Positions 8,518 through 45,015 of a stretch of DNA of 64,000 nucleotides are shown here, piece after piece. A model generated the notes under the pieces. It searched no databases. It saw only the letters and a program-made list of their open reading frames with translations, and was not told where the DNA came from. This DNA comes from an uncultured Gemmatimonadota bacterium (lineage in GTDB: Bacteria; Gemmatimonadota; Gemmatimonadetes; Palauibacterales; Palauibacteraceae), in assembly GCA_913043255.1 (NCBI GenBank), contig CAJWLK010000001.1, positions 324,288 through 388,287 on the forward strand, read 5' to 3'. The stretch's first letter is position 1. Each line of letters begins with the position of its first letter. The translations under genes and the position numbers were made by a program.

Positions 8518-9680
8518 AGACAGCGGATGCAGTCATCATTGGGGGGGGGATCATGGGGGCCAGCGCCGCACACTTCCTTGCCAAGAACCGGTTCGGAAAG
8601 ATCGTGCTTCTTGAAGCAAAACATCTGGCAGCGGTCAGCACAGGTCATTCGGCTGCCAACGTCCGAACCTATTATACAAATCATATCACACTTGAGCTCG
8701 CTAAACGCGCCCTTCATATGTTTGAGGATGAGCATGACGAGCTCGGCGGCGATTGTGGATTCCAACAAGTGGGTTTTCTGCTACTGGTTGACCCCAACTC
8801 TCTCTCTGTGGGCAATCGCATTGTTGAGTTGGAGAGTAAGCACGGGCTCGATGTAAAAGACCTTTCGCCAGACGATATCCGAGAACTCGCACCCCAGCTC
8901 TCTCTTACCAACGTGGTCAAGGGAGTCTTTGAACCGCGTTCCGGGTATGCAGACCCTGTTAAGACAACACAGAGCCTAATCAGTCGTGCAGAAGAATGGG
9001 GCCTAAAAGCATACCAGGGGAGCGCTGCAACAGGGATTCGCAAAAAGGCAGGACAAATCACTGGAGTGGAGACCTCAGACGGAGCAATCGAAACTCCCGT
9101 CGTCATCAATGCGGCAGGGGCTTGGGCCGGACACATCGATTCGTGGCTTGACGTCAAAACTTCACTTCGATGGAGTCGCGAGAGTGACCTGTTTGTTGAG
9201 ATGCCCGCGGACTTTGGACCTCTCCCGGTGGTTTCCGACCCATACCATCGATCTTACTTCCGCCCGCACTCCCAAAACAGAATTATGGCAGGATTGGGAG
9301 CACCCAAGGAGATAGAACCCTTACACCCGGATGATTACGACTCCAGCTTAGACCCAAAAACACGACAACGTATCGAGCAGCCTTTATTTAAAAGGGTTGC
9401 TGCCTTAGAGACGGCAAAGCATTTGGGAGGCTACGCTTCGATTTATACGATCACCGATGACTGGCACCCAATTGTAGGAGCTCGACCGGAAGTGGAGGGT
9501 TATTTTGCATTCTTCGGAGGTAGCGGTCATGGCTTTAAGCTTGCGCCACCAATTGGCGAAGCACTCGCCAGCATTATCTGCGGAGAGAGCCCGGCCATCG
9601 ACATTAAGGCGTTCAGACCAGAACGCTTCATTGAAGGAGAACCCATCACGTCCGCTTGGGGTGAAGGTAACCGCGGGTAA
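8514..9680 (+). CDS. FAD-dependent oxidoreductase (DAO family, sarcosine-oxidase-beta / glycine-oxidase-like)
   Basis: 388 aa. The N-terminal GxGxxG motif is AVIIGGGIMGASAAHFLA. It overlaps the hyuB stop by ATGA. The C-terminal fold is DAO-like. Confidence 0.8.
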   Translation: MKTADAVIIGGGIMGASAAHFLAKNRFGKIVLLEAKHLAAVSTGHSAANVRTYYTNHITLELAKRALHMFEDEHDELGGDCGFQQVGFLLLVDPNSLSVGNRIVELESKHGLDVKDLSPDDIRELAPQLSLTNVVKGVFEPRSGYADPVKTTQSLISRAEEWGLKAYQGSAATGIRKKAGQITGVETSDGAIETPVVINAAGAWAGHIDSWLDVKTSLRWSRESDLFVEMPADFGPLPVVSDPYHRSYFRPHSQNRIMAGLGAPKEIEPLHPDDYDSSLDPKTRQRIEQPLFKRVAALETAKHLGGYASIYTITDDWHPIVGARPEVEGYFAFFGGSGHGFKLAPPIGEALASIICGESPAIDIKAFRPERFIEGEPITSAWGEGNRG

Positions 9681-9711
9681 CGAGGTCTTCTCGTGTTGTT
9701 TGAAAACAGTA

Positions 9712-9798
9712 TGCCGGGGGTGGGATTTGAACCCACACGGGGGTTACCCCCCTTCGGATTTTAAGTCCGATGCGTCTGCCGATTCCGCCACCCCGGCG
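9712..9798 (-). tRNA. tRNA-Leu (anticodon TAA), class II with long variable arm
   Basis: Reverse complement reads GCCGGGGTGGCGGAATCGGCAGACGCATCGGACTTAAAATCCGAAGGGGGGTAACCCCCGTGTGGGTTCAAATCCCACCCCCGGCA. It has a 7-bp acceptor stem, anticodon loop CT-TAA-AA, a long extra arm and a TPsiC GTTCAAATC. Confidence 0.85.
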
Positions 9799-9900
9799 TT
9801 ACATCTTCCAAGCTAAGTAACAACCCGCCAACTGCACACGTTTAACATATTTCAACCCTACTAACGTGACATCATCCCCTGCGGGCGATCAGGTCCAAAC

Positions 9901-11790
9901 TCAATACCCTCTTTGTTTATTTACAACGGATAGCAACGGCTCTCCCTTCGCAAAACGGCGTAGGTTCTCTCTAAATAGCAGCCACATACGTTCCATATGA
10001 CCATCACCATCCCCCCCTAAGTGTGGGGTGATAATGACGTTTGGCATTCCCCAAAGATCATGATTTTCCGGGAGCGGTTCGGGATCAGTCACGTCTAGAC
10101 CTGCCCCTAAAATTCGTCCCTCACGCAAAGCTGACATGAGAGCTTCGGTATCGACTGTTCCGCCCCTTCCGATATTAATTAAAAACGATGTTGGTTTTGT
10201 TCTGGAAAAAAACTCGTTGCCGAACAGTTTTTCAGTGGTGGGAGTAAGGGGTAGGCTGTTAACGATAACATCTGCTTCTGGCACCAAATCCAAGAGTTCT
10301 GACGCAAGGCCCACATACTCTACAAATGGTGGCCCGTGTCGGCTGCTACCCCGTGTGGCGATAACGCGCATGCCAATTCCGTTTGCTACGCGGGCCACTT
10401 CCGTGCCAATACCACCCAATCCAACTACTAAGAGCGTGCGCCCTCGCAGTTCGAGAAGTTCGCTCCCCTTTCCTATGTAGGGTGTCGCACCAGTTAAGGG
10501 AGTTATATCCCAACGACGTTTACGCTGTAGTTCTAGGGCTACATTTAGGCGGCGGCTCAGCATCAACACCATCCCCAAAACATGTTCTGCACCGCCCGGA
10601 CCGAAAATTCGCTGAGCATTAGATAAGACGACGTCGCTCTCGTTCAACCCTGGTATTCCCAGGTATCTCTCCACACCAGCAGAACTAAGCTGCACCCATC
10701 GCAAGTTCTGTGCCTCGTTAAAGATCTGCGGTGTTAGCCACCCTAGAACGGCATCAGCATCGCGTCCCAATTCAGCCGCTTCACTAGGGTCACCTGCTAC
10801 GACAACGTCGACCCCCGGGGCAACCAAAGCCAACTGCCCTGTCCGTCCTGGCCAAAGATCAGCCACAACGATTTTGGTGGGGCGGGTCCATCCCGGGCTT
10901 ACAGCTGTTGGAGAAGGGCCTTCTTGAAGCCCCAGATCATCTATAAAAGTTGTGGCAGGCCGGAGACCCACGAGTTCGTCGTATATTTTCCCGAAGGCAA
11001 ACTCCGATATTGCCCCAAAATCTTCTGGCTTCACAATGTCGAACACCTGTTTTCGATTCTTAGCATACCCCAGCGCATCAAAAAAACGTTCTTTAAGCTT
11101 CTCAAGCGTACTGCGAGTTTCGACGATGATTTCGGGACCCAGAACCTGCCCGTTACCCGCAACAACGATTTTAGGATTCATGCCTTCAAAGCGTTTCAGC
11201 GCTCGGATCCAACCCTCTATTGGTAAAAGAGATGGACTTCGACCGGAACCGACAAGATCACCGGCGAAGAGGACGCCAGAATCAGGAACGTAGACAGCGA
11301 GAGATCCACTTTCTCGATCGTTCACGTGGTGGAACTCCACGAGATGATGGGAGTCTTGGAGAATAGTTCCTGACTGAACCTCTAATACACTACCGGAGAC
11401 CACGGATGATACGTGTGTCGAATCAGCCATGTCCCCGCGTTTTTGGGGAGCAATAAAATCGGATTCCAAGGCCGTGAGCCAAACCACATCTGCAAAGTGA
11501 TCTTCTGATACCTTCTCACCACTCCCAAATGTGCGCACTCCAAAACGAATGGGTTTCCCCGAATAACGTCGGGCAATTTCGGCCACCCTCGGTTTCCCAT
11601 CTACAATCGTTTCATCAATTACGAGCACATAATCATCAAATTCGATCCACCCTGCATTTCCAGATAGGCCACCTGCCTGCGAAGGAGTGGTAAGTACAGC
11701 CACGTCATCAGCTACCCATTCGGGCACCTGGGAAGAAATCGGTGAAGTTCCAACCAATATCCATGCAAGCAGTATGATCGCGGGCTTCAT
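9901..11790 (-). CDS. signal-peptide-bearing fusion: N-terminal MBL-fold-like domain (degenerate metal motif) + C-terminal D-isomer-specific 2-hydroxyacid dehydrogenase (NAD-binding)
   Basis: 629 aa. The N-terminus MKPAIILLAWILVGTSPISSQ is signal-like. NAGWIEFDDYVLVID and HHVND...GVLFAGDL resemble MBL strands, but the canonical HxHxDH motif is replaced (TFGSGEKVSEDHF). The C-terminal half has GLGGIGTEVA (GxGxxG), a catalytic His in ITPHLGG and the D-2-HADH layout. Confidence 0.7.
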   Translation of the reverse strand: MKPAIILLAWILVGTSPISSQVPEWVADDVAVLTTPSQAGGLSGNAGWIEFDDYVLVIDETIVDGKPRVAEIARRYSGKPIRFGVRTFGSGEKVSEDHFADVVWLTALESDFIAPQKRGDMADSTHVSSVVSGSVLEVQSGTILQDSHHLVEFHHVNDRESGSLAVYVPDSGVLFAGDLVGSGRSPSLLPIEGWIRALKRFEGMNPKIVVAGNGQVLGPEIIVETRSTLEKLKERFFDALGYAKNRKQVFDIVKPEDFGAISEFAFGKIYDELVGLRPATTFIDDLGLQEGPSPTAVSPGWTRPTKIVVADLWPGRTGQLALVAPGVDVVVAGDPSEAAELGRDADAVLGWLTPQIFNEAQNLRWVQLSSAGVERYLGIPGLNESDVVLSNAQRIFGPGGAEHVLGMVLMLSRRLNVALELQRKRRWDITPLTGATPYIGKGSELLELRGRTLLVVGLGGIGTEVARVANGIGMRVIATRGSSRHGPPFVEYVGLASELLDLVPEADVIVNSLPLTPTTEKLFGNEFFSRTKPTSFLINIGRGGTVDTEALMSALREGRILGAGLDVTDPEPLPENHDLWGMPNVIITPHLGGDGDGHMERMWLLFRENLRRFAKGEPLLSVVNKQRGY

Positions 11791-12003
11791 GTAAACTCCT
11801 ACTTGGTCCTTAGAAGAGAAGGCGATTCAGGCTGCCCGTTGGACGCAGCCTAACTAATGGTGGGTGAAGCGGACTGAGTTGTCTCAGTGCAGACATTTTT
11901 AGACTATGGGAACAACTCCATGTCCGCTGATAGACAACTCCTAAATTGCCATCATCAAATAGCAATCACTGGAGAACCGCGCCACGCACTCTCCTGTCAC
12001 GGC

Positions 12004-12216
12004 TTAACGATCAGTTACCTCAACAAGCAAGATCACTAGTAGCGCAATTAGGACAGGTATTCCGATGAGCCAGTCCTGCCATTCGGGCATCTCCACCTCC
12101 GCCTTATCGATATCGACAACCAAAACCATACGAGATAAACATGCCCCTTCTTCGTGGAGCAGCGGTCGTTCCCCAACCTGCTTTAGTAGCTGCTCCAATG
12201 CAAAGACAGGAAGCAC
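12004..12216 (-). CDS. hypothetical small membrane protein (70 aa)
   Basis: ORF with a C-terminal hydrophobic helix (LIGIPVLIALLVILLV). It sits between dut and the fusion dehydrogenase on the same strand. No recognisable family. Confidence 0.25.
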   Translation of the reverse strand: MLPVFALEQLLKQVGERPLLHEEGACLSRMVLVVDIDKAEVEMPEWQDWLIGIPVLIALLVILLVEVTDR

Positions 12217-12247
12217 TTCGTCGTGCGTTTATCACCCAGGGGCAAAC

Positions 12248-12784
12248 CTACTCGATTCCAGTACTTCCTAAACCACCTACCCGATCCGTTGAAACCGAGA
12301 CCTCTCCTTCCTCCCAGTCAAATACAGCAAATCGGTTGAGGACAATCTGGGCGATGCGTTCCCCATGTGTAATTTTCACGGGGTGAGGTGAGGAATTGAG
12401 AACGAGGACAAACCATTCGTCTGGGTAATCAGCATCCACTGTACCTGGGGCGTTTGGAACGGTAAGGCCACACTTCCAGGCAAGCGAGGAGCGTATTCGG
12501 ATCTGCGCTTCATAACCCCTAGGAAGTTGAGCCCGAAAACCGGTCGGAATAAGGGCCCGGTCTCCAGGTTCGAGTATGATGGCCGGATCTGACCCAACAT
12601 CGGAAACGGGGGCTTCTTCTGATACAGCCTCTATCGCACTGCGGTGAATCTTGATCCGCCCACGTGTCAGGTGTGCTCTGACGTCGTAGCCGGCCGAAAG
12701 CTCTGTTGATCGAACTGGTTTCTGGACATCTGGAGCGAGGCTCTCAAAGACTACCCGTTCACTGGAGGAATTCTTCACCCGCAT
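12248..12784 (-). CDS. dut: dUTP diphosphatase (dUTPase)
   Basis: dUTPase motifs are present: SAGYDVRA, GDRALIPTG, IRIRSSLAWKCGL and GTVDADYPDE. The likely start is the internal Met at 12784 (MRVKN...). It abuts the FMN reductase stop. Confidence 0.8.
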   Translation of the reverse strand: MRVKNSSSERVVFESLAPDVQKPVRSTELSAGYDVRAHLTRGRIKIHRSAIEAVSEEAPVSDVGSDPAIILEPGDRALIPTGFRAQLPRGYEAQIRIRSSLAWKCGLTVPNAPGTVDADYPDEWFVLVLNSSPHPVKITHGERIAQIVLNRFAVFDWEEGEVSVSTDRVGGLGSTGIE

Positions 12785-13350
12785 CAGCTCCCCTGAAAGA
12801 GTCTGGCCCATTCTATAGCTGAGCTTATGAATTTTTCGAGGCGCTCGATAGCGGCTTCATCTGCCAGCTTAAAATCTTGACCGAAGAGTGAACTCGCCCC
12901 TCCCAAAAGCAGCCGAGGTTGCGGCATTACCCGTGCATTATTCGAGCCCAGACACTCCCGAAGCGCTCTCTGTGCTGCCGCTGTTCCTAGGGGACTAGGC
13001 GTTGTACCCATAATTGCAACCGGCTTTCCATCCCAAGCTTGAGGACGTGGTGGGCGAGACGCCCAATCGATCATGTTTTTCGTTACGGCCGACATGCCTT
13101 GGTTGTATTCAGGCGTCACAATGAACACTAGGTCAGAAGAATGAATTTTGCTCTTTAGAGTTAAAACCGAATCTGGGTCTCCGTCAGCCTCAAGGTCAGC
13201 GTTATAAAACGGCAACGGAGCCAAATTAAATACGTCAATCTCCAATTCCCTAGGCGATCGCTCAATCACAGCTCGCAGAAGGGCTTGGTTATATGAAGCG
13301 ACGCGAAGACTTCCCACGAACGCGAGGGCTTGAATCGTCGAATTGGTCAT
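12784..13350 (-). CDS. NAD(P)H-dependent FMN reductase family protein (flavodoxin-like fold)
   Basis: IQALAFVGSLRVASYNQALLRAV and LVFIVTPEYNQGMSAVTKNMIDWASRP match the NADPH-dependent FMN reductase family. The preferred start is M at about 13350 rather than the track start at 13410. Confidence 0.7.
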   Translation of the reverse strand: MTNSTIQALAFVGSLRVASYNQALLRAVIERSPRELEIDVFNLAPLPFYNADLEADGDPDSVLTLKSKIHSSDLVFIVTPEYNQGMSAVTKNMIDWASRPPRPQAWDGKPVAIMGTTPSPLGTAAAQRALRECLGSNNARVMPQPRLLLGGASSLFGQDFKLADEAAIERLEKFISSAIEWARLFQGS

Positions 13351-13676
13351 ATCATCTCCGTGAGAACCAACCTGCGCCATTTGTAACAAGTAAAACATAT
13401 TCCGAAACATAACTCATGGGATGGGCTGCCTCCTCCCTTCCTGTAGCTTAGCCAAAGTAACTAGCATTCTGCACAAGCCCTTCATGTCCATTCCACGAGG
13501 CACCTGCATGCTCGGGACTCTGGAGTCATCCGACGACCTGTGGCAACCTCAATCAGGAAAAAACGCAAAGAGATGCCAGCATTATACAGTAGAGATGTTG
13601 ACAGTGGCCTCCACCCCCCATTTCATCATTGTGATCGAATATACCCGGCTTATCAAACCCGTTCAGGAGAATCCTG

Positions 13677-16600
13677 ATGGACCGTCGCATCTCTTGTAAT
13701 CACAAAGCACGTTCTCGCCACCTTCTGATGATCACTGCATTTACCGTTGTCTTTTTCTCCATTTTCACCACACAACTAGTAGCACAGAACGTGATGCAAG
13801 AAGAAGAAAGCGACCCGACAAATGAGAATCTTCCTCTCGAACCAGATCGATGGGTTCCTATTGATATGACTGAAGGGAGTTGGATATCACTTGATGTGAG
13901 TCCCGACGGTCAAGCGATCGTGTTTGACTACCTTGGCGACCTCTTCACAATGCCGATCACAGGGGGCGCCGCGACCCAGATCACTTCCGGGATGGCATTT
14001 GACGCTCAGCCACGATTTTCTCCAGATGGTGCTCAGATCGTGTACAGCTCGGACCACGATGGCGGACAAAACATCTGGGTCATGTCATCCGATGGTTCGG
14101 ATCCCACCCAAATTTCTACGGGCAAGGCTAATCGCGCAGAGTCGCCCGAGTGGCTACCCGGTGGCGAGTATGTCATCGCTTCGATCGGAGATTTCCGCGG
14201 CGGAGCTCTCCCTAAACTGAAGATGTTCCACGTAGAGGGCGGTAGTGGGATCAAACTCATCTCAGAGCCTGACAATCTCAAGATGATTGGACCTGCAGTC
14301 TCACCCGACGGCCGGCATATCTGGTACTCCCGTAGGACAAGTGACTGGACCTACAACGCACAGTTTCCACAGTATCAAATAGAGGCATATGACCGAGAAA
14401 CAGGAGAGCGTTATACCAAGTCGGCTCGATATGGCTCGGCTATTCGGCCTACACTCTCCCCGGATGGTCGCTGGGTCGTGTTCGGTACGCGACACGAAGA
14501 CCAGACAGGGCTCATCCTCCGAAATCTCGAAACAAGTGAAGAGCGCTGGCTTGCTTATCCAGTCCAGCACGATGACCAAGAATCTCGTGCAACGTTAGAC
14601 CTCCTGCCCGGAATGTCGTTCACACCCGACTCTCAACATTTGATAGTCTCTTACGGTGGTAAGATTTGGAAACTTCCCATAGAGAACGGCGAAGTTGAAG
14701 AAGTCCCATTCCAAGTAAAATTCGATCTAGGACTCGGGCCTCAGGTAGATTTCGACTATCCTATCGAAGACACCCCAACATTCACCGTTCGGCAGATCCG
14801 GGATGCTGCACCTTCACCAAGCGGAGATCGACTGGCTTTCACCGCTCTTGACCGACTGTGGACATCTGCCTCGGATGGGTCCAATCCCGAGCGCCTAACC
14901 GATGAAGACATATCTGAACATTTTCCCGCATGGTCGCCTGACGGTGAGTGGATTGCCTACTCAACCTGGGATGGAGACGAAGGGCACCTCTATAAGACAC
15001 GAGCAAACGGGCGAGGAAATCCCATTCGCCTTACGGAGAAAGCCGCGACCTATTTCTCTCCAGCTTGGGGACCCGGTGACCGGATCGTAACTGTGCGGGG
15101 ATTTGTTCGTTCATTCAAGACACAAGGTGAGGGTGGCACTCCCGGTTCAGAGATCGTGTGGGTTTCGGCGAACCCCGATGGTGACACTGGAGGCGAAGCC
15201 AGGGTGATTGCACCAACCGATAGGCGCGCGAACCCACATTTTGTTGACGGTGTAGAACGCATTTACCTATTCCGTTCTCCAGACATATTGGTTTCAATCC
15301 GTTGGGATGGAACCGATGAGAAACAACATATCAAGGTGCGGGGAGCCACCCTTACCGGGGCAAGCCAAGGCTTGACCCCCACAGCCATCTGGATGGCACC
15401 ACGCGGCGATCAAGCGTTGGTAGAGCTACAACGTCAAATCTATTCAGTGACTGTCCCACAAGTTGGAACTGCCCCCACCATCAACATCACAGACCCTGAG
15501 AAAGCCTCCTTTCCATCCCGCCAACTAACCGACATCGGCGGCGAGTTTCCGACTTGGGAGGCCGATGGTCGTAGGATCCACTGGTCTTTAGGAAACGCGC
15601 ATTTTGTTTATGATCTCGATGACGCTCGAACTGTAGAAGACAGTGTGGCGGCAGCCAACGAAGAGGAGACCGATGACAAAGAACACGATGAACAGAACGA
15701 TAGCCACTATAAGGCGAGCGAGTTTCGTGTCTTAATAGAGGCACCCCGCGACATCCCAACCTCACTGGCGGTACTCCGCGGGGGACACGCTATCACAATG
15801 CACGACAACCAAGTTATTGAGAATGCAGACATTGTCATCCGAAACAACCGCATTGAAGCGGTGGGAATCCAAGGTTCAGTCAACGTGCCCACCGAGGCGG
15901 AGGTAATCGATGTTAGCGGGCGGTGGATTCTACCCGGATTCGTTGACACGCATGCGCACCTTAGAGCACGAGATGAACTGCACCGAAGCGATATATGGCC
16001 CTACTTAGCTAACCTAGCCTACGGAGTGACAACAACTCGAGATCCCCAGACAGGCAACACTGAGGTTTTGTCCTATGCAGATATGGTTCGGTCGGGTGCT
16101 GTGCTTGGCCCACGCGTCTATTCAACTGGGCCTGGCGTGATGTGGCAAGACGGCATCGACACCGCGGATGAGGCAAAAGACGTCCTCTCCCGATACTCAA
16201 ATTACTTCGACACCAAAACTATCAAGATGTATGTCGCTGCCGCACGCAAAGGACGACAACACATCATCATGGCCGCACGCGAGTTGGGTCTCATGCCTAC
16301 AACAGAAGGCTCACTTAACATCCGGCAAAATTTAACCGAAACGATCGATGGATATCCTGGACTTGAGCACTCCATCCCCATCTTCCCCGTCTACGGTGAC
16401 TACGTGAAGCTATTCGCTGAAACCGGGCGCGTGTACACCCCAACATTACTCGTCTCGTACGGTGGGCCATGGGCAGAGAACTACTACTACAGCAGGGAGA
16501 ACCCACACGACGATGTGAAGCTCAGGCGGTTTATCCCACATGATGAAGTCGACGCTCGCACGTTGCGTCGACCACAGTGGTTCCGAACAGACCAGCATGT

Positions 16601-17018
16601 CTTTGCTCGTCACGCAGAGTTCGTGAAAAACCTCGTTGAGGCCGGGGGGAAGGCAGGTGTAGGAAGCCATGGCCAACTTCAAGGGCTGGGATATCATTGG
16701 GAGTTGTGGAGTATGGCAGCTTCGGAACTCGACGAATATGACGCGCTACGGATGGCCACAATTTTCGGAGCTGATGCCATCGGCCTCGATCAGGATTTGG
16801 GCTCAATCGAACCAGGCAAACTCGCTGACCTCGTGATCTTGAGCGCAAACCCGCTTGATGATCTTCGTAACACGAATACCGTCAAGCAGGTGATGCTCAA
16901 CGGCCGCCTGTACGACGGCGACACGCTAAACGAACTGTACCCGCGCCAACGCCCTCTAGCACCACTCTGGTGGTGGGATGAAGAGCCTGACGGGGTACCA
17001 GGACTCCGGAGACCTTAG
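13677..17018 (+). CDS. secreted TolB-like PD40 beta-propeller repeats fused to amidohydrolase family domain
   Basis: 1113 aa with a signal-like N-terminus. Repeated SPDG/FSPDG...W propeller blades run through residues about 60-480. The C-terminal part has GFVDTHAHL (HxH metal motif) and the amidohydrolase TIM-barrel layout. Confidence 0.8.
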   Translation: MDRRISCNHKARSRHLLMITAFTVVFFSIFTTQLVAQNVMQEEESDPTNENLPLEPDRWVPIDMTEGSWISLDVSPDGQAIVFDYLGDLFTMPITGGAATQITSGMAFDAQPRFSPDGAQIVYSSDHDGGQNIWVMSSDGSDPTQISTGKANRAESPEWLPGGEYVIASIGDFRGGALPKLKMFHVEGGSGIKLISEPDNLKMIGPAVSPDGRHIWYSRRTSDWTYNAQFPQYQIEAYDRETGERYTKSARYGSAIRPTLSPDGRWVVFGTRHEDQTGLILRNLETSEERWLAYPVQHDDQESRATLDLLPGMSFTPDSQHLIVSYGGKIWKLPIENGEVEEVPFQVKFDLGLGPQVDFDYPIEDTPTFTVRQIRDAAPSPSGDRLAFTALDRLWTSASDGSNPERLTDEDISEHFPAWSPDGEWIAYSTWDGDEGHLYKTRANGRGNPIRLTEKAATYFSPAWGPGDRIVTVRGFVRSFKTQGEGGTPGSEIVWVSANPDGDTGGEARVIAPTDRRANPHFVDGVERIYLFRSPDILVSIRWDGTDEKQHIKVRGATLTGASQGLTPTAIWMAPRGDQALVELQRQIYSVTVPQVGTAPTINITDPEKASFPSRQLTDIGGEFPTWEADGRRIHWSLGNAHFVYDLDDARTVEDSVAAANEEETDDKEHDEQNDSHYKASEFRVLIEAPRDIPTSLAVLRGGHAITMHDNQVIENADIVIRNNRIEAVGIQGSVNVPTEAEVIDVSGRWILPGFVDTHAHLRARDELHRSDIWPYLANLAYGVTTTRDPQTGNTEVLSYADMVRSGAVLGPRVYSTGPGVMWQDGIDTADEAKDVLSRYSNYFDTKTIKMYVAAARKGRQHIIMAARELGLMPTTEGSLNIRQNLTETIDGYPGLEHSIPIFPVYGDYVKLFAETGRVYTPTLLVSYGGPWAENYYYSRENPHDDVKLRRFIPHDEVDARTLRRPQWFRTDQHVFARHAEFVKNLVEAGGKAGVGSHGQLQGLGYHWELWSMAASELDEYDALRMATIFGADAIGLDQDLGSIEPGKLADLVILSANPLDDLRNTNTVKQVMLNGRLYDGDTLNELYPRQRPLAPLWWWDEEPDGVPGLRRP

Positions 17019-17045: not shown

Positions 17046-18986
17046 TTAACGATACACTTGGAGTGGAAGACTAACAGCTCCCAGAGGAGCATCAGCAGTG
17101 TGGAGGGACAACTCTAGGTGGTTATTCAGTAAGTCATGTAGCATGTGCGCTGTGAGTTTGAGGCTGCCCTCGGCCGCTGCATTCCCCGGTCCCGATACCC
17201 GGTGAACGATAGCGTCAGGCCCGGCACCATCGCGACGTCGGATAACAATTGCATGCACCTCGTCATCGGGGAGACCACCTGAAACGATAAGGTAGCTCAG
17301 GTTCCCACCCGGAAGATCAAGGCTAAAACTTGCGTCTAGCTGCACTCCAGTCGGCCTTCCCAACCAATCGGCCTCGCCCGAGGCACTAAAAATAAGCGCC
17401 TCAGGAACCCGTGCTTCGACGAGTTCCGGTGTGCGATGCGGTGCCCGGCGCGGCGTCGTGGCCTGCTCTAGGCCGTATGCCAGCGAAACAAGCCGAACGT
17501 CGTCAAAGGGACGCCCTAAGAGCTCAATGCCTACAGGCAAATGCATTTCGGTGAACCCCGCAGGGGCGCTGATGGCCGGAAGTCCACTGTGTGCGGCCAG
17601 TGAGCAGGTACGACCTCCACGAGGCGCAGTTCCAATCAGCGTCGGCTCCTCTCTGAGCGTTGGATACGCAATCGCATCCAGACCATGTTCGTCCATCAAG
17701 TCGACCAAGGCTTTTCGGAGTGTTACCTGGCGATCTAGGGTCTCGCGGTATTCGTCTTCATCCCGTTCCTCCGCAAAACTCCTACGCCGATATGTCCCGT
17801 CCAGCACTTCATGATGGAGACCAAGCTCGACGATTTGAGGCAAGCCATCGATTGGAGTGCTCGACACCCCAGCTAGATAGTTTGCTAGATCGATCACGAA
17901 TTCTAGTCCAATAACGCTCGAGTTTATCAGAAGTGAATCGAGGTTTGGAATGGTGATATCGACCACCTCGGCACCTTCATCAGTCATGGCGGTCAGGGCA
18001 CGCCGCACAACCGTAGTCACCTGCCCCTCACCGCCCTCTTCACCAAGCCAAGCTTCTAGAGCCCCAATCTTCGCACCGCGCAATTCGTCCCTGTCCAAGT
18101 TAGCCAAAAAGTGAGGAGCCTCACGGTCTTTGAGCGTGTGTGTAGCTGGATCGGCCAAATCAAAGCCGACAGTCGCATCAAGTGCAATGGCCAGGTCGAC
18201 CACAGAACGCGCTAGTGGCCCACCTGTATCTTGTGTGTGTGAGAGCGGCACAATGCCATCGATACTTGAGAGTCCTTTAGTCGGCCTCAAACCGACGAGG
18301 TTGTGGACGGATGACGGAATCCGAATTGAACCACACGTATCTGACCCCCAGCCTACCGCAGCAAAACTTGCAGCCACACCGGCCCCAGTTCCACCGGAAG
18401 ATCCCCCAGGGTTGCGCTCAGGGGCGTACGGATTCCGTGTTTGACCTCCGAGTGAGCTGACACTTGTTATGCCCGCCGCCAGTTCATGGAGGTTAGTCTT
18501 CGCCAGAATGATCGCCCCTGCTTCTCGCAGCCTCCGTACCTGGAATGCATCATCGGGGGGGACTGAACCGGCCAAGGCAAGAGTCGATCCCGTAGTCGGC
18601 ATGTCGAACGTGTCATAATTATCCTTAAGGAGGATTGGGATACCGTGCAGCAAACCCCGCACTTGACCATCTGCTCGTTCTCGATCGAGTCGCACTGCTT
18701 GTGCACGCGCTTCTGGGTGGACACGGATAATGGCGTTGATCATCGGCCCTGATTTGTCATATGCCCTAATCCGATCCAGATATGCCTCCACAAGGTCGAC
18801 CGAAGTGACGTGACCCGAATCTAGCGCCGCCCTCAACTCTGGGATCGACGCTTCCATGACTTCGAACACAACCGACTCTTGTGACCACAAAGCAGTTACA
18901 AGTGAAGAGCCGGGGAGAACGCTCAAAACCAGAGTCATCATCCCAACCAAAAGTGCAAAACGACGGATCATGGGAGTACGCTCCAT
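17046..18986 (-). CDS. amidase (amidase-signature family) with signal peptide and extra C-terminal domain
   Basis: The signature GGSSGGTGAGVAASFAAVGWGSDTCGSIRIPSS is present. The N-terminus MIRRFALLVGMMTLVLSVLPGSS is signal-like. About 150 additional C-terminal residues are present. Confidence 0.85.
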   Translation of the reverse strand: MERTPMIRRFALLVGMMTLVLSVLPGSSLVTALWSQESVVFEVMEASIPELRAALDSGHVTSVDLVEAYLDRIRAYDKSGPMINAIIRVHPEARAQAVRLDRERADGQVRGLLHGIPILLKDNYDTFDMPTTGSTLALAGSVPPDDAFQVRRLREAGAIILAKTNLHELAAGITSVSSLGGQTRNPYAPERNPGGSSGGTGAGVAASFAAVGWGSDTCGSIRIPSSVHNLVGLRPTKGLSSIDGIVPLSHTQDTGGPLARSVVDLAIALDATVGFDLADPATHTLKDREAPHFLANLDRDELRGAKIGALEAWLGEEGGEGQVTTVVRRALTAMTDEGAEVVDITIPNLDSLLINSSVIGLEFVIDLANYLAGVSSTPIDGLPQIVELGLHHEVLDGTYRRRSFAEERDEDEYRETLDRQVTLRKALVDLMDEHGLDAIAYPTLREEPTLIGTAPRGGRTCSLAAHSGLPAISAPAGFTEMHLPVGIELLGRPFDDVRLVSLAYGLEQATTPRRAPHRTPELVEARVPEALIFSASGEADWLGRPTGVQLDASFSLDLPGGNLSYLIVSGGLPDDEVHAIVIRRRDGAGPDAIVHRVSGPGNAAAEGSLKLTAHMLHDLLNNHLELSLHTADAPLGAVSLPLQVYR

Positions 18987-41840: not shown

Positions 41841-43229
41841 ATGGAAGTCATAATTGGAAAACACATACCACGTCGTACGTTTTTACAAGGTATCGGAGCC
41901 ACGATCGCGCTTCCCTTCCTCGATGCGATGATTCCGGCGGGGCGCTTGTCGGGGCTAAGTGCGGCGATCGATCCCACTCGCCTCATATGTATTGAAATGG
42001 TACATGGGGCTGCGGGCAGTTCTCAGTACGGCGCTTCCCGTAACCTATGGTCACCTGCAAGTACGGGACGAAATTTCGATTTGGCCCCGACTGCACTCAG
42101 CTCACTCGAGCCGTTCCGAAAGTATCTAACCATCGTTTCCGATACCGATGTGAGCTCCGCAGAGGCAACCAAACCTCAAGAAATTGGTGGAGATCATTTC
42201 CGCTCAAGTGCAACTTTTTTGACACAGTCCCACCCCCGGCAAACTGAGGGTTCGGATATTTATGTAGGGACGTCAATGGATCAGTTATACGCAGCGCAAT
42301 TTGGGCAAGAGACACCTATCCCATCGATGCAACTCTGTATAGAAAACGTAGACCAATCAGGTGGCTGCGCATACGGTTATGCGTGCGTCTACACGGACAC
42401 AATCAGCTGGAAATCCCCCACGGAACCACTACCGATGATTCGGGATCCGCGCGTCGCATTTGACCAGCTGTTCGGGGCGGGCGGGAGTGCTGAGGAACGC
42501 GCAATCCGACGACGTGCTAACAAGAGCGTGCTAGACTTCATAGCCGATAGAGTACGCGAACTTAAGCGTGAACTTGGCCCGGACGATTCGAGACGAATCG
42601 ACCGATACCTAGAGAGCGTACGGGAAATTGAACGTAGGATTGAGATGGTCGAGATACAGAATAGTAATGGGGAACTGCGAGAGCTTCCAGAAGCACCAGC
42701 CGGCGTCCCTGATTCCTTTGAGGAACACGTGAAGCTGATGTTTGATTTACAGGTGCTCGCATTCGCTTCTGATATGACTCGTGTATTCTCCTTTAAGCTT
42801 GGTCGTGACTCTTCCGCACGAGTATTCCCTGAGAGTGGCGTGGACAAACCATTCCATCCAACCTCCCACCACGGAGGAAACGAAAAAAACATCGAAGACT
42901 TTGCACGGATCAACCGATACCATGTGAGCATGATTCCATACCTATTGGGCCGTTTAGAGGACACAATGGAAGGTGATACTCACCTGCTCGATAAGACGAT
43001 GATCATATATGGTTCGCCAATGGGAGATCCGAACGTACATAACCACAAACGCTGCCCCCTTTTCATAGCAGGAGGCGCGAATGGAAAACTAGACGGTGGC
43101 ATTCATGTTCGAGCGAAACCGGACACTCCGATGGCGAACGTGATGTTGACACTGATGCACACACTTGGGCTTGAAGAAATGGCAAGGTTTGGTGATAGCA
43201 CCAAACCTTTTTCACTAAATACCTGGTGA
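41841..43229 (+). CDS. DUF1552 domain protein with twin-arginine (Tat) signal
   Basis: The N-terminus IPRRTFLQGIGATIALPFLDAMIP is the hallmark DUF1552 Tat-signal block. It starts 18 nt after the DUF1592 stop. Confidence 0.75.
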   Translation: MEVIIGKHIPRRTFLQGIGATIALPFLDAMIPAGRLSGLSAAIDPTRLICIEMVHGAAGSSQYGASRNLWSPASTGRNFDLAPTALSSLEPFRKYLTIVSDTDVSSAEATKPQEIGGDHFRSSATFLTQSHPRQTEGSDIYVGTSMDQLYAAQFGQETPIPSMQLCIENVDQSGGCAYGYACVYTDTISWKSPTEPLPMIRDPRVAFDQLFGAGGSAEERAIRRRANKSVLDFIADRVRELKRELGPDDSRRIDRYLESVREIERRIEMVEIQNSNGELRELPEAPAGVPDSFEEHVKLMFDLQVLAFASDMTRVFSFKLGRDSSARVFPESGVDKPFHPTSHHGGNEKNIEDFARINRYHVSMIPYLLGRLEDTMEGDTHLLDKTMIIYGSPMGDPNVHNHKRCPLFIAGGANGKLDGGIHVRAKPDTPMANVMLTLMHTLGLEEMARFGDSTKPFSLNTW

Positions 43230-43236
43230 TCGCAAG

Positions 43237-45015
43237 ATGCATATAAGCATGCGAATCCGGACTTTCATAACCGCTTTCCTAATAAGTGTTTGGGCCTCGG
43301 AAGCCGCATCTTATAATGACCCGGATGTATCTGAGACTCCACTTGCCGATGCTGCTATGCGTGGCGATGTGACAAGTGTCCAACGACTTCTTGAAGCGGG
43401 TGTTAATGTAAACGAAGCTCAGGGTGATGGTATGACCGCACTTCACTGGGCTGCTCGCAATTCCGATGCTCAGCTGGCAGAGCTTTTGGTCTCAGAGGGG
43501 TCTAGGGTCAATACGGTTACGAGGATTGGAGCGTACACTCCCCTCCATCTCGCCAGTCAAGTCGGGAATGCCGAAATCATCAAAATCTTACTGGGAGCAG
43601 GAAGTCTCCTACAACCGACAAGTAACTCGGTAGGCGGAACGATGCCCCTGCACTTTGCAGCTGCGTCGGGGAGCGTCGGTGCGGTACGTGCACTCCTTAA
43701 TGCTGGCGCACAACCAAATGTGATCGAAGCCACATGGGGTCAAACCCCGCTTATGTTCGGAGCAGCTAAGGGACGGACTGATGTCGTTCGTGTTCTACTT
43801 GAAGGCGGGGCGAACCCAGCCATCACGACCAAAGTCACAAACATCGCAGCCAAAGCAGAACAAGCACAGGAAGAACGACGAGCTCGGAATGCACGTATTC
43901 GAAAAACACCACCCACGGGCCAAAACTTACTAGGACAGACTGGAGTAAAGGCAGGTCAAGTTGAGCAACTTCTAACTATTGAGGAGCAGGAAGAATACGA
44001 TCGACCAATTGAAGAGCCTGAACCCCTTAGTTATGGCCAATTGATCGGAAGGCATGGAGGTATGACCGCCCTGCTCCACGCTGCCCGTGAAGGTCATATC
44101 GGCACAGGGATGGCACTCCTAGATGGCGGCGCAGACATTAATCAGACAAGTGGAAGTGACCGGACCAGTCCGATGTTGATGGCAATGATTAACGGGCACT
44201 TTGATATGGCCATACAACTCTTGAGGCGTGGAGCAGACCCTACGGTCGCATCTGAGGCGGGTGCAACACCACTTTACGCAGCAATCAACGCTCAGTGGTC
44301 ACCAAAATCACGTTACCCGCAACAACACGCGTCCCAACAACAAAAGGTGACCTATCTAGAGGTAATGCAAAGATTATTAGAAGCTGGTGTCAACCCAAAT
44401 GTAAAGCTCAAAAAGCACCTGTGGTGGATGTCGTTCAACTTCGATCTTCTTCAAATCGATACCAAAGGAGCCACACCATTTTGGCGCGCAGCCTACGGAC
44501 TAGATGTGAATGCTATGCGCCTTCTTGTTTCGTATGGCGCCGATCCAAACATCGCTACGGAAAAAGTCCCACCGCGACGCAGGCCGGTGTGGGACCAGGA
44601 GAGTAAAGACCTGTCGGGGTTCCCTCCAACCCCGATCGGAGGGCCAGCCGACTACCCTATTCACGCAGCATCTGGAATCGGCTATGGACAAGGTTTCCCG
44701 AGTAATGCACACCGTTATGTGCCGGATGGTTGGATGGCTTCAGTCAAGTATCTGATTGAAGAACTTGGAGCCGACGCCAATCAACGAGATGACGAGGGCT
44801 ACACGCCACTTCACAATGCCGCTTCTCGAGGAGATGTTGAAATGATCCGTTATCTAGTTGAGCATGGTGCTGACGTCACCGCGGTCAGTCGAGTGGGACA
44901 AACAACAGCTGACATGGCCAACGGACCTTATCAGAGGACGCAACCATTTCCTGAGGCAGTAGCACTCTTAGAAAGTCTAGGATCAAAAAACAACCATAAC
45001 TGCGTGTCTTGCTAA
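43237..45015 (+). CDS. secreted ankyrin-repeat protein
   Basis: 592 aa with a signal peptide (FITAFLISVWASEAAS). Multiple 33-aa ANK repeats are present (GMTALHWAARN, TPLHLASQVGN, MPLHFAAASGS, TPLMFGAAKGR, TALLHAAREGH, TPLHNAASRGD). The two ANK blocks are split by a charged linker. It starts 7 nt after the DUF1552 gene. Confidence 0.85.
   Translation: MHISMRIRTFITAFLISVWASEAASYNDPDVSETPLADAAMRGDVTSVQRLLEAGVNVNEAQGDGMTALHWAARNSDAQLAELLVSEGSRVNTVTRIGAYTPLHLASQVGNAEIIKILLGAGSLLQPTSNSVGGTMPLHFAAASGSVGAVRALLNAGAQPNVIEATWGQTPLMFGAAKGRTDVVRVLLEGGANPAITTKVTNIAAKAEQAQEERRARNARIRKTPPTGQNLLGQTGVKAGQVEQLLTIEEQEEYDRPIEEPEPLSYGQLIGRHGGMTALLHAAREGHIGTGMALLDGGADINQTSGSDRTSPMLMAMINGHFDMAIQLLRRGADPTVASEAGATPLYAAINAQWSPKSRYPQQHASQQQKVTYLEVMQRLLEAGVNPNVKLKKHLWWMSFNFDLLQIDTKGATPFWRAAYGLDVNAMRLLVSYGADPNIATEKVPPRRRPVWDQESKDLSGFPPTPIGGPADYPIHAASGIGYGQGFPSNAHRYVPDGWMASVKYLIEELGADANQRDDEGYTPLHNAASRGDVEMIRYLVEHGADVTAVSRVGQTTADMANGPYQRTQPFPEAVALLESLGSKNNHNCVSC

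What the first reader, a model, noticed from the sequence alone, without database searches (positions are those of the whole stretch)
9901..11790. Exported fusion of a metal-motif-degenerate MBL-like domain to an NAD-dependent D-2-hydroxyacid dehydrogenase
The 629-aa protein begins with a convincing Sec-type signal (MKPAIILLAWILVGTSPISSQ). Its first about 300 aa show the spacing of MBL-fold strands (NAGWIEFDDYVLVID ... HHVNDRESG ... GVLFAGDL), but the HxHxDH zinc motif is replaced by TFGSGEKVSEDHF. The C-terminal half is an unambiguous D-isomer-specific 2-hydroxyacid dehydrogenase with an NAD Rossmann motif (GLGGIGTEVA) and a catalytic His (ITPHLGG). An NAD(H)-dependent dehydrogenase targeted outside the cytoplasm is unexpected, because there is no periplasmic NAD pool. 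I know of no described fusion of this type.
Basis: partly seen in the sequence, partly recalled or inferred. Interest (0 to 1): 0.6.

Follow-up and report, generated by a model that had tools for sequence, protein, structure and literature searches.

The report
Exported dehydrogenase fused to dead metallo-hydrolase
This marine bacterial gene makes a protein that is sent outside the cytoplasm and joins a burnt-out metallo-beta-lactamase-like domain to a fully intact NAD(P)-type 2-hydroxyacid dehydrogenase; it belongs to a widespread, undescribed group of exported dehydrogenases whose cofactor supply outside the cell interior is unexplained.

Summary
ORF 9901-11790 (-) encodes a 629-aa protein with four parts: a canonical cleavable Sec signal (res 1-20), an MBL-fold domain that has lost 6 of 7 metal ligands (22-285), a conserved Pro-rich arm (286-305), and a complete 2-hydroxyacid dehydrogenase (306-629). 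The dehydrogenase keeps an invariant GLGGIG loop and Arg542/Glu571/His590 triad. Its cofactor loop (TRGSSR, no Asp) looks NADP-type, not NAD-type.

The fusion is real. At least 86 full-length homologues exist (37-65% identity), and about 12 of them keep an intact HxHxDH MBL site. Close single-domain relatives carry lipoprotein signals or N-terminal membrane anchors. More distant ones in Gammaproteobacteria, Planctomycetota, Verrucomicrobiota and Acidobacteriota carry Sec or lipoprotein signals. Firmicute and haloarchaeal relatives have none. So a whole 2-HADH clade appears to be extracytoplasmic, almost always via Sec-type rather than Tat signals, which means the cofactor cannot be co-exported.

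No conserved operon, no riboswitch and no literature description was found. My best reading is a periplasmic nicotinoprotein-like oxidoreductase with a pseudo-MBL accessory domain. The substrate and the cofactor-loading route are unknown. I rate it a new variant of a known kind, of moderate to high interest.

The parts
9901..11790 (-). Whole gene: 629-aa precursor (stop codon 9901-9903)
   Evidence: ORF list. The exact protein recurs on TARA ocean and other marine contigs.
11796..11800 (-). Shine-Dalgarno AGGAG, 5-nt spacer before the ATG
   Evidence: Sequence. It supports the start codon that includes the signal peptide.
11731..11790 (-). Sec type I signal peptide, residues 1-20 (MKPAIILLAWILVGTSPISS), predicted cleavage before Gln21
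   Evidence: n/h/c layout and conservation across the clade. Predicted helix 2-14 followed by a low-pLDDT stretch. No twin-arginine motif.
10936..11727 (-). Degenerate metallo-beta-lactamase-fold domain, residues 22-285 (ligand positions F88, S90, E92, K93, R159, D178, N213)
   Evidence: Pfam/NCBIfam partial hits. AF2 pLDDT 86 and Foldseek MBL hits at E about 1e-12. Ligand mapping.
11398..11466 (-). Variable, low-confidence insertion in the MBL-like domain, residues 109-131
   Evidence: pLDDT <50 for 110-131. Gapped in many relatives; P0006 lacks it.
10876..10935 (-). Conserved Pro-rich arm LGLQEGPSPTAVSPGWTRPT, residues 286-305 (W301 and P304 near-invariant or invariant)
   Evidence: Conserved in fusions, in short lipoprotein/TM forms and in signal-bearing gammaproteobacterial single-domain relatives. 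Absent from signal-less relatives.
9904..10875 (-). D-isomer-specific 2-hydroxyacid dehydrogenase, residues 306-629 (both lobes)
   Evidence: PF02826 1e-49, PF00389 weak. PDB sequence hits. Foldseek 5mh5 TMt 0.86.
10405..10422 (-). Dinucleotide-binding loop GLGGIG, residues 457-462
   Evidence: Invariant in 120/121 family sequences.
10339..10356 (-). Cofactor-specificity loop TRGSSR, residues 479-484 (Arg where NAD-specific enzymes have Asp)
   Evidence: Arg in 108/121, Asp in 11 (the intact-MBL clade). NADP fingerprint described in PMC6303947.
10165..10167 (-). Catalytic Arg542
   Evidence: Invariant 120/121.
10078..10080 (-). Catalytic Glu571
   Evidence: Invariant 120/121.
10021..10023 (-). 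Catalytic His590
   Evidence: 119/121.

Best explanation
The gene encodes a precursor that is exported through the Sec translocon. Signal peptidase I cleaves it after Ser20 (PISS|QVPE), releasing a soluble periplasmic two-domain protein.

Domain 1 has the metallo-beta-lactamase fold but has lost six of its seven metal ligands. It is therefore a pseudo-hydrolase, retained as a structural or ligand-binding module. Domain 2 is preceded by a conserved Pro-rich arm. It is a catalytically competent 2-hydroxyacid dehydrogenase of the DDH/GHRA-like type with an NADP-type cofactor loop.

The protein belongs to a cross-phylum clade of 2-HADHs that are all equipped for export. Within that clade, an intact periplasmic-type MBL was fused on, then decayed, and in some lineages was lost again.

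A Sec substrate crosses the membrane unfolded, and no periplasmic pyridine-nucleotide pool is known. I therefore infer that the enzyme works as a nicotinoprotein. It would acquire one NADP(H) after export and keep it bound. It would then shuttle hydride between a D-2-hydroxy acid and a 2-oxo acid (or another acceptor) in a ping-pong manner, as periplasmic glucose-fructose oxidoreductase does, rather than exchanging free cofactor.

Shown: the gene, the domain folds, ligand loss, catalytic-residue conservation, and signal features with their phylogenetic consistency. Inferred: actual export and cleavage, NADP preference, retained-cofactor mechanism, substrate class.
For: Gene and start.

Export signals:
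- The query has a canonical SPI signal. In its clade the signals are 20-22 aa, and 24 of 28 have a small residue at -1 and Gln at +1.
- The hydrophobic core of about 12 residues is too short for a stable anchor.
- Nested short homologues (65-77% identical in the DH domain) carry lipoboxes (LAGC/LVGC/VVGC, 11 sequences) or N-terminal TM segments.
- Signal- or lipobox-bearing single-domain relatives occur in Woeseiaceae, Steroidobacteraceae, Halieaceae (including the isolate Haliea sp. E17), Planctomycetota, Akkermansiaceae, Gemmatimonadota and Solibacteraceae. Clostridial and haloarchaeal relatives have no signal.
- The MBL partner is of the periplasmic SoxH-related/class-B-like type.
- The query has 0 Cys in 629 aa against a window frequency of 0.64%, and the clade is Cys-poor.
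- The organism uses Tat signals elsewhere, and RR motifs are rare in the family.

Catalytic competence: GLGGIG, R542, E571 and H590 are invariant in 119-120 of 121 sequences down to 37% identity.

MBL decay: 12 fusions have all seven ligands, and the query has one. The former motif-1 region is unconserved even within the query clade. The degenerate domain's close relatives are all fusions.

Precedent for a periplasmic enzyme with non-dissociable NADP: GFOR, as summarised in PMC8121099.
Against: - No signal-peptide predictor (SignalP, DeepTMHMM) was available, so export rests on hand-scored features and comparative consistency, not experiment.
- GFOR and its relatives use Tat to carry the cofactor. 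This family is overwhelmingly Sec-type, so the route by which any cofactor reaches the enzyme is unexplained, and the nicotinoprotein step is the weakest link.
- The NADP-type loop is shared with signal-less relatives, so it is not an adaptation to export.
- No conserved neighbour, redox partner or transporter was found.
- The topology of the TM-anchored short forms is ambiguous under the positive-inside rule.
- The NJ tree is crude, so the order of fusion, decay and loss is provisional.
Confidence: 0.55

Rival explanations
1. The protein is exported, but the dehydrogenase uses freely exchanging NAD(P)(H) from an extracytoplasmic pool. That pool could come from a dedicated exporter, leakage or lysis, or a particle-associated niche. 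The enzyme would be an ordinary NADPH-dependent 2-oxoacid reductase that happens to work in the periplasm.
For: The cofactor site is ordinary and indistinguishable in its key motifs from cytoplasmic DDH/GHRA enzymes. Sec export precludes pre-loading, so some external supply of cofactor is needed in any catalytic model. Other enzymes that need 'cytoplasmic' cofactors are also predicted to be periplasmic, for example the minimal ATP-dependent DNA ligases (PMC4220977).
Against: No periplasmic NAD(P)H pool or exporter is known (general knowledge). No transporter gene is linked to the family. Sustaining a reduced pool outside the membrane would be energetically costly.
Confidence: 0.2
2. The protein is exported, but the 2-HADH domain no longer transfers hydride. 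It would act as a binding or sensor module for 2-oxo/2-hydroxy acids or for a dinucleotide-like ligand, making the whole protein a double pseudoenzyme.
For: The partner domain is already a pseudoenzyme. The cofactor-supply paradox disappears if no turnover is needed.
Against: The full catalytic triad and the glycine loop are invariant across more than 120 sequences and several phyla. Pure binding function would not be expected to preserve this.
Confidence: 0.12
3. The protein is cytoplasmic or faces the cytoplasm. The N-terminal hydrophobic stretch would then be a mis-called start or an N-out/C-in anchor, so there is no paradox.
For: No experimental localisation exists. An in-frame GTG sits at codon 22. 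The TM-anchored short forms have basic residues on both flanks.
Against: - A strong SD precedes the ATG and none precedes GTG22.
- The signal's n/h/c features and the -1/+1 residues are conserved at the protein level across 37-65% identical homologues.
- Lipobox versions are by definition exported.
- The N-terminal Lys favours N-in/C-out.
- The MBL domain is of a periplasmic type.
- The protein is depleted in Cys.
Confidence: 0.08
4. The fusion is an assembly or frameshift artefact joining two separate genes.
For: None beyond prior caution about metagenomic data.
Against: The same architecture appears in at least 86 full-length proteins from independent assemblies, including megabase contigs. 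The exact protein appears on several independent contigs. AF2 gives pTM 0.81 for the whole chain.
Confidence: 0.01

Closest known systems
DDH / GHRA subfamilies of D-2-hydroxyacid dehydrogenases (Haloferax mediterranei D2-HDH 5mh5; GhrA-type NADPH glyoxylate/hydroxypyruvate reductases 4weq, 5tsd; phenylpyruvate reductase 8hpg)
   Same: Same two-lobed fold (TMt 0.81-0.86), the same Arg-Glu-His triad and glycine loop, and an Arg-rich NADP-type betaB-alphaD loop.
   Different: Those enzymes are cytoplasmic, single-domain and lack signals. This protein scores far below both curated cutoffs: 177 bits against 400 for NF041369, and 73 against 403 for GhrA. It also has a conserved Pro-rich N-terminal arm, an export signal and an MBL-fold partner. 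The 2HADH classification paper mentions no signal peptides, periplasm or lactamase fusions.
Zymomonas mobilis glucose-fructose oxidoreductase (GFOR) and Tat-exported Gfo/Idh/MocA relatives
   Same: A periplasmic nicotinamide-dependent oxidoreductase that solves the missing-pool problem with non-dissociable NADP and ping-pong chemistry (PMC8121099). This is the model for how the present enzyme may work.
   Different: It belongs to an unrelated Rossmann family and is exported folded with its cofactor by Tat. The present family has Sec-type or lipoprotein signals and almost no twin-arginine motifs.
SoxH-related 'quinoprotein relay system' zinc metallohydrolases (TIGR04558/TIGR04559), class B1/B2 beta-lactamases, and the uncharacterised MBL 8d2z
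   Same: These are the nearest sequence and fold relatives of the N-domain, and they are periplasmic-type MBLs.
   Different: Even the intact-motif fusion P0084 reaches only 115 bits against a cutoff of 280. The window's domain reaches 37 bits and lacks six of seven metal ligands.
Minimal periplasmic ATP-dependent DNA ligases (Lig E type)
   Same: A conceptual parallel: a signal-peptide-bearing enzyme whose co-substrate is thought to be absent from the periplasm (PMC4220977).
   Different: Unrelated fold and chemistry. It can be pre-charged by self-adenylation, which has no equivalent here.

Membership tests
D-isomer-specific 2-hydroxyacid dehydrogenase superfamily (PF02826/PF00389) | Rossmann cofactor-binding domain with GxGxxG | tested here: met
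   PF02826 E 1.3e-49, covering profile positions 1-178 of 178. GLGGIG is invariant.
D-isomer-specific 2-hydroxyacid dehydrogenase superfamily (PF02826/PF00389) | Catalytic Arg-Glu-His triad | tested here: met
   R542, E571 and H590 are present and 119-120/121 conserved.
D-isomer-specific 2-hydroxyacid dehydrogenase superfamily (PF02826/PF00389) | Discontinuous substrate-binding lobe flanking the cofactor domain | tested here: met
   PF00389 hit spans 334-624 (18 bits, below the 24.6 cutoff). The fold match to whole enzymes gives TMt 0.86.
D-isomer-specific 2-hydroxyacid dehydrogenase superfamily (PF02826/PF00389) | NAD(P)-dependent oxidoreduction of a D-2-hydroxy/2-oxo acid | not testable with these tools
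   Needs an enzyme assay.
GHRA (GhrA-type glyoxylate/hydroxypyruvate reductase) | Curated equivalog score, [ST]R[ST]x[RK] fingerprint and conserved Trp53 | tested here: not met
   NF012013 scores 73 bits against a cutoff of 403. The loop is TRGSSR, or TRNS[SR]R in relatives, which is similar to the fingerprint but not identical. The Trp after beta3 (W351) is not conserved in the family.
DDH (Haloferax-type D-2-hydroxyacid dehydrogenase, NF041369) | Curated equivalog score | tested here: not met
   177 bits against a cutoff of 400. It is nevertheless the best structural match.
Metallo-beta-lactamase superfamily (PF00753) | alpha-beta/beta-alpha sandwich fold | tested here: met
   27.1 bits against a cutoff of 22.7. 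AF2 plus Foldseek gives 543 PDB MBL hits, the best at E 2e-12.
Metallo-beta-lactamase superfamily (PF00753) | HxHxDH motif plus His196, Asp221 and His263 metal ligands | tested here: not met
   F88, S90, E92, K93, R159, D178, N213: only the Asp221 equivalent is kept. It has the fold but is not a metallohydrolase.
SoxH-related quinoprotein-relay zinc metallohydrolase (TIGR04558/9) | Curated score | tested here: not met
   37 and 26 bits against cutoffs of 300 and 280. Intact relative P0084 scores 115 and 84 bits.
Sec/SPI-exported proteins | Positively charged n-region, 7-15 residue h-region, c-region with small residues at -3/-1 | tested here: met
   MK / AIILLAWILVG / TSPISS|Q. The pattern is conserved in the clade. 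This was hand-scored, without SignalP.
Sec/SPI-exported proteins | Demonstrated translocation and cleavage | not testable with these tools
   Needs PhoA fusion, fractionation or N-terminal sequencing.
Tat substrates carrying pre-bound cofactor (GFOR-like export) | Twin-arginine motif in the n-region | tested here: not met
   The query has no RR. RR motifs are found in only a handful of family members. The organism does use classic Tat signals elsewhere.
Nicotinoproteins (non-dissociable NAD(P)) | Stoichiometric, non-exchangeable bound cofactor | not testable with these tools
   This is inference only. It needs cofactor analysis of the native or mature protein.

The most novel reading that the evidence does not exclude
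A cross-phylum clade of Sec-exported and lipoprotein-anchored, catalytically intact NAD(P)-type 2-hydroxyacid dehydrogenases exists. It spans Gemmatimonadota, Gammaproteobacteria, Planctomycetota, Verrucomicrobiota and Acidobacteriota. If real, diderm bacteria must have an unrecognised way to supply or retain pyridine-nucleotide cofactor outside the cytoplasmic membrane, by post-export loading or a periplasmic NADP(H) pool. That would open periplasmic 2-oxo/2-hydroxy-acid redox chemistry that current models exclude. The MBL fusion series (intact, then decayed, then lost) would record how an accessory hydrolase became dispensable.
Probability: 0.2. Interest if true: 0.85.

Novelty: new variant of a known kind. 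Interest (0 to 1): 0.62.

Why it matters
Textbook reasoning holds that nicotinamide-dependent dehydrogenases are cytoplasmic, or Tat-exported with the cofactor pre-bound. This family is Sec-routed or lipoprotein-routed, keeps its catalytic residues and spans several phyla, so it challenges that rule. It also offers a concrete test system: a cultured carrier (Haliea sp. E17) and a soluble mature domain. It would either reveal a route for cofactor delivery to the periplasm or define a new cofactor-retaining mechanism in the 2-HADH family. In addition, it adds an exported subfamily and a new domain architecture to the 2-HADH classification, and it gives a clean natural series of pseudoenzyme formation in the MBL fold.

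Tried and rejected
- **Gene-neighbourhood analysis.** I compared the window with 30 related loci by all-vs-all BLAST of flanking ORFs, and used Pfam-annotated contexts. There was no conserved partner beyond lineage-level synteny: the PD40-amidohydrolase in close relatives, split AhpC/TSA ORFs next to P0005/P0006, and Woeseiaceae-specific blocks.
- **Rfam scan of 9600-12400.** It found only the downstream tRNA-Leu and no riboswitch in the 457-nt upstream spacer.
- **Genome-collection scan.** Names on family members point to Gemmatimonadota and Acidobacteriota.
- **AFDB50 fold search.** The library was unavailable, so UniProt-level architecture and taxonomy could not be checked.
- **Literature searches.** I looked for exported or periplasmic 2-HADHs and for MBL+2-HADH fusions and found nothing relevant. 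The library covers open-access papers only.
- **Glyoxalase-II-like coupling idea.** A thioester hydrolase producing D-lactate for the dehydrogenase was considered for the intact fusions. It was not pursued, because the MBL domain groups with SoxH/class-B-like MBLs rather than glyoxalase II.
- **Cysteine depletion.** It is only weakly discriminating.
Full report
**1. The observation**

The ATG is preceded by AGGAG with a 5-nt spacer. The next in-frame start candidate that would skip the hydrophobic N-terminus (GTG at codon 22) has no such site.

The exact protein recurs on independent marine contigs, including TARA Oceans assemblies and contigs up to 552 kb. This is therefore neither an assembly artefact nor a frameshift fusion.

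**2. The dehydrogenase half**

Residues 306-629 are a complete D-isomer-specific 2-hydroxyacid dehydrogenase.
- Pfam PF02826 matches at E 1.3e-49 over the full profile.
- More than 170 PDB sequences match. The best are 3evt, the phenylpyruvate reductase 8hpg, and 3hg7.
- The AF2 model (pLDDT 85, pTM 0.81) superposes best on Haloferax D2-HDH 5mh5 (TMt 0.86), followed by GhrA/GhrB-type reductases.

All curated NCBIfam equivalogs are missed by a wide margin: 177 bits against 400 for Dhydh_Halo, and 73 against 403 for GhrA. It is thus a member of the superfamily but of no named subfamily.

Across 121 family sequences, the glycine loop GLGGIG, Arg542, Glu571 and His590 are conserved in 119-120. The position that is Asp in NAD-specific 2-HADHs is Arg in 108 of 121 (query: ATRGSSR). 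This resembles the [ST]R[ST]x[RK] NADP fingerprint described for GHRA in PMC6303947. This is an inference from the motif. Signal-less relatives share the same type of loop.

**3. The N-terminal half**

Pfam and NCBIfam see only the C-terminal half of an MBL domain: PF00753 at 27.1 bits against a cutoff of 22.7, and TIGR04558 at E 2e-9.

An AF2 model of residues 22-300 is confident (pLDDT 86). Foldseek returns 543 PDB MBL-fold matches at E<=1e-3, led by LACTB2, the uncharacterised Burkholderia MBL 8d2z, VIM/SPM-1 and chlorothalonil dehalogenase.

The decisive evidence is homology to fusion relatives that still carry a textbook site: FDTHYHGDH, GHAHTPGD, FTGD, APGHG. Aligned to these, the seven ligand positions in the window protein are F88, S90, E92, K93, R159, D178 and N213. 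Only the Asp221 equivalent survives.

The former motif-1 region is not conserved even within the query's own 27-sequence clade. The second half (LFAGDLVGxGRG ... WIxxLxRLERLxPxxVVPGxG) is conserved. The domain is thus a folded pseudo-hydrolase.

The intact version groups with the periplasmic SoxH-related 'quinoprotein relay' MBLs and class B1/B2 lactamases, but far below their cutoffs. An exhaustive search with the degenerate domain alone finds essentially only 580-670 aa fusions or fragments at E<1e-10. Free-standing MBLs of about 300 aa appear only at weaker scores.

**4. The fusion is a family, with a history**

The first homology search returned at least 86 full-length fusions at 37-65% identity. 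JGI auto-annotates some of them with both COG names.
- About 12 keep all seven MBL ligands. These also have the NAD-type Asp in the dehydrogenase.
- About 74 are degenerate in several different ways.
- Some 31 proteins of 360-420 aa lack the MBL domain. They are nevertheless 60-77% identical to the query's dehydrogenase, which is closer than most fusions are.

A rough NJ tree of the dehydrogenase domain orders the groups as follows: signal-less enzymes, signal-bearing single-domain enzymes, intact fusions, successive degenerate fusions, and then the short forms nested next to the query's clade. This suggests gain of an active MBL, its decay, and in some lineages its loss. The tree is crude and this order is provisional.

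A Pro-rich arm (LGLREGPSPTxxxPGWTxPxK; W301 near-invariant, P304 invariant) precedes the dehydrogenase. It occurs in the fusions, in the short forms and in gammaproteobacterial single-domain relatives, but not in signal-less relatives.

**5. Export**

No signal-peptide predictor was available, so I scored features directly. The query's N-terminus has the following features:
- Lys2 in the n-region.
- An 11-12 residue hydrophobic core, too short for a stable anchor.
- Pro at -5, Ser at -1 and Gln at +1.

In the query's clade, 24 of the 28 sequences examined (query included) have this 20-22 residue layout with Gln at +1. Of the 86 fusions, 71 have a net-positive n-region.

The nested short forms replace this with lipoboxes (LLLVGC, LLLAGC, LVVGC; 11 sequences) or with an N-terminal transmembrane segment.

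In reference genomes, single-domain relatives carry classic AxA signals or lipoboxes. They come from Woeseiaceae, Steroidobacteraceae, Halieaceae (including the isolate Haliea sp. E17), a Rhodobacterales MAG, Planctomycetota, Akkermansiaceae, Gemmatimonadota and Solibacteraceae. The next relatives out (Clostridia, Paenibacillus, haloarchaea) have none.

Three different export devices on one enzyme clade are hard to explain unless the enzyme really works outside the cytoplasm. Lipoprotein processing in particular requires translocation.

Supporting details:
- The MBL partner is of a periplasmic type.
- The query has no cysteine in 629 residues, where about 4 would be expected at the window's own frequency, and the clade is Cys-poor.
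An N-in anchor puts the C-terminal bulk outside.

**6. Sec, not Tat**

Twin-arginine motifs are rare in the family. The window's organism does use textbook Tat signals: two tandem amidohydrolase paralogues begin MSEVSRRDFMALSGLAAGGAVWAGC.

The known solution for a periplasmic nicotinamide enzyme is GFOR exported folded with non-dissociable NADP by Tat (PMC8121099). That route is therefore not the one used here. This is the real puzzle: the cofactor site and triad are under strong purifying selection, yet the polypeptide must cross the membrane unfolded.

**7. Context gives no help**

The gene is monocistronic in the window. A tRNA-Leu(TAA) lies 103 nt downstream on the same strand. A 457-nt spacer with no Rfam match lies upstream.

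The neighbours are unrelated: dUTPase-like, FMN reductase, DAO-family oxidoreductase, hydantoinase B and PD40-amidohydrolase. Across 30 related loci no neighbour is conserved beyond lineage-level synteny.

**8. Mechanism**

I commit to the following. It is a periplasmic, SPase-I-processed two-domain protein. The 2-HADH domain is the only catalytic part. It uses an NADP-type cofactor that is retained rather than exchanged, so hydride is passed between a D-2-hydroxy acid and a 2-oxo acid or another acceptor (GFOR-like ping-pong). The pseudo-MBL domain serves as a structural or ligand-binding appendage.

My confidence by step:

| Step | Confidence |
|---|---|
| Export | about 0.85 |
| Catalytically active dehydrogenase | about 0.7 |
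| NADP preference | about 0.6 |
| Retained-cofactor mechanism | about 0.3 |

Rivals are an exchangeable external NAD(P)H pool (0.2), a non-catalytic binding role (0.12), cytoplasmic location (0.08) and an artefactual fusion (0.01).

**9. Novelty**

The 2HADH classification paper (PMC6303947) contains no mention of signal peptides, periplasm, secretion, transmembrane segments or lactamase fusions. Full-text searches found no paper on an exported 2-HADH or on this architecture. No PDB chain spans both domains.

The library searched covers open-access papers only, and automated annotation already labels both domains. I therefore rate this as a new variant of a known kind, not categorically new. 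The variant is an exported 2-HADH clade with a decaying MBL fusion.

The conceptual parallel with signal-bearing ATP-dependent ligases (PMC4220977) shows that 'cytoplasmic-cofactor' enzymes predicted in the periplasm are not unique, though they remain unexplained.

Noticed in passing
window 57257-58975 (+) and 59028-60728 (+): Two tandem paralogous Amidohydro_3 proteins (572 and 566 aa). Their N-termini are identical and combine a textbook Tat motif with a lipobox (MSEVSRRDFMALSGLAAGGAVWAGC). This looks like a recent duplication of a Tat-exported lipoprotein amidohydrolase.
   Followed up: partly
window 11728-11730 (Gln21 of the query); also the N-termini of ORFs 52107-53378 (-), 53375-54769 (-), 13677-17018 (+): Predicted signal-peptidase sites are followed by Gln at +1 (PISS|QV, TLA|QT, IAG|QQ, LVA|QN). 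The same holds in 24 of 28 sequences of the query's clade. This resembles the 'Q-rule' reported as specific to Bacteroidetes (PMC5837995), here in a family otherwise labelled Gemmatimonadota. It may say something about the host lineage or about a wider spread of the rule.
   Followed up: partly
window 9712-9797 (-): tRNA-Leu (anticodon TAA) lies 103 nt downstream of the gene on the same strand. The spurious + strand ORF 9505-9816 reads through it.
   Followed up: yes
window 13677-17018 (+); L086 1440-4730; L090 1-1063: A 1113-aa signal-bearing PD40/TolB-like beta-propeller fused to an amidohydrolase lies near the fusion gene, both in the window and in two relatives. The window is generally rich in exported amidohydrolases and amidases (also 17046-18986, Amidase).
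   Followed up: partly
L001 9355-9975; L087/L088/L089 5327-5947: In the relatives carrying P0005 and P0006, two short AhpC/TSA-like ORFs sit directly upstream of the fusion gene on the same strand. They look like a split thioredoxin-fold gene. Nothing comparable is in the window's 457-nt upstream spacer.
   Followed up: no
window 11398-11466 (-), residues 109-131: A low-confidence, poorly conserved insertion in the pseudo-MBL domain. It is absent from some close relatives (P0006 is 589 aa). It lies where the loops around the former active site would be.
   Followed up: no
window 12248-12811 (-) and 12784-13410 (-): The dUTPase/dCTP-deaminase-like gene and the NADPH-dependent FMN reductase gene upstream overlap by 28 nt and are probably co-transcribed. 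This is an odd functional pairing.
   Followed up: no
window 41841-43229 (+) and 43237-45015 (+): A DUF1552 (HXXSHH) protein with a Tat-like N-terminus is followed by a signal-bearing 592-aa ankyrin-repeat protein. Exported ankyrin-repeat proteins are unusual in free-living bacteria.
   Followed up: no
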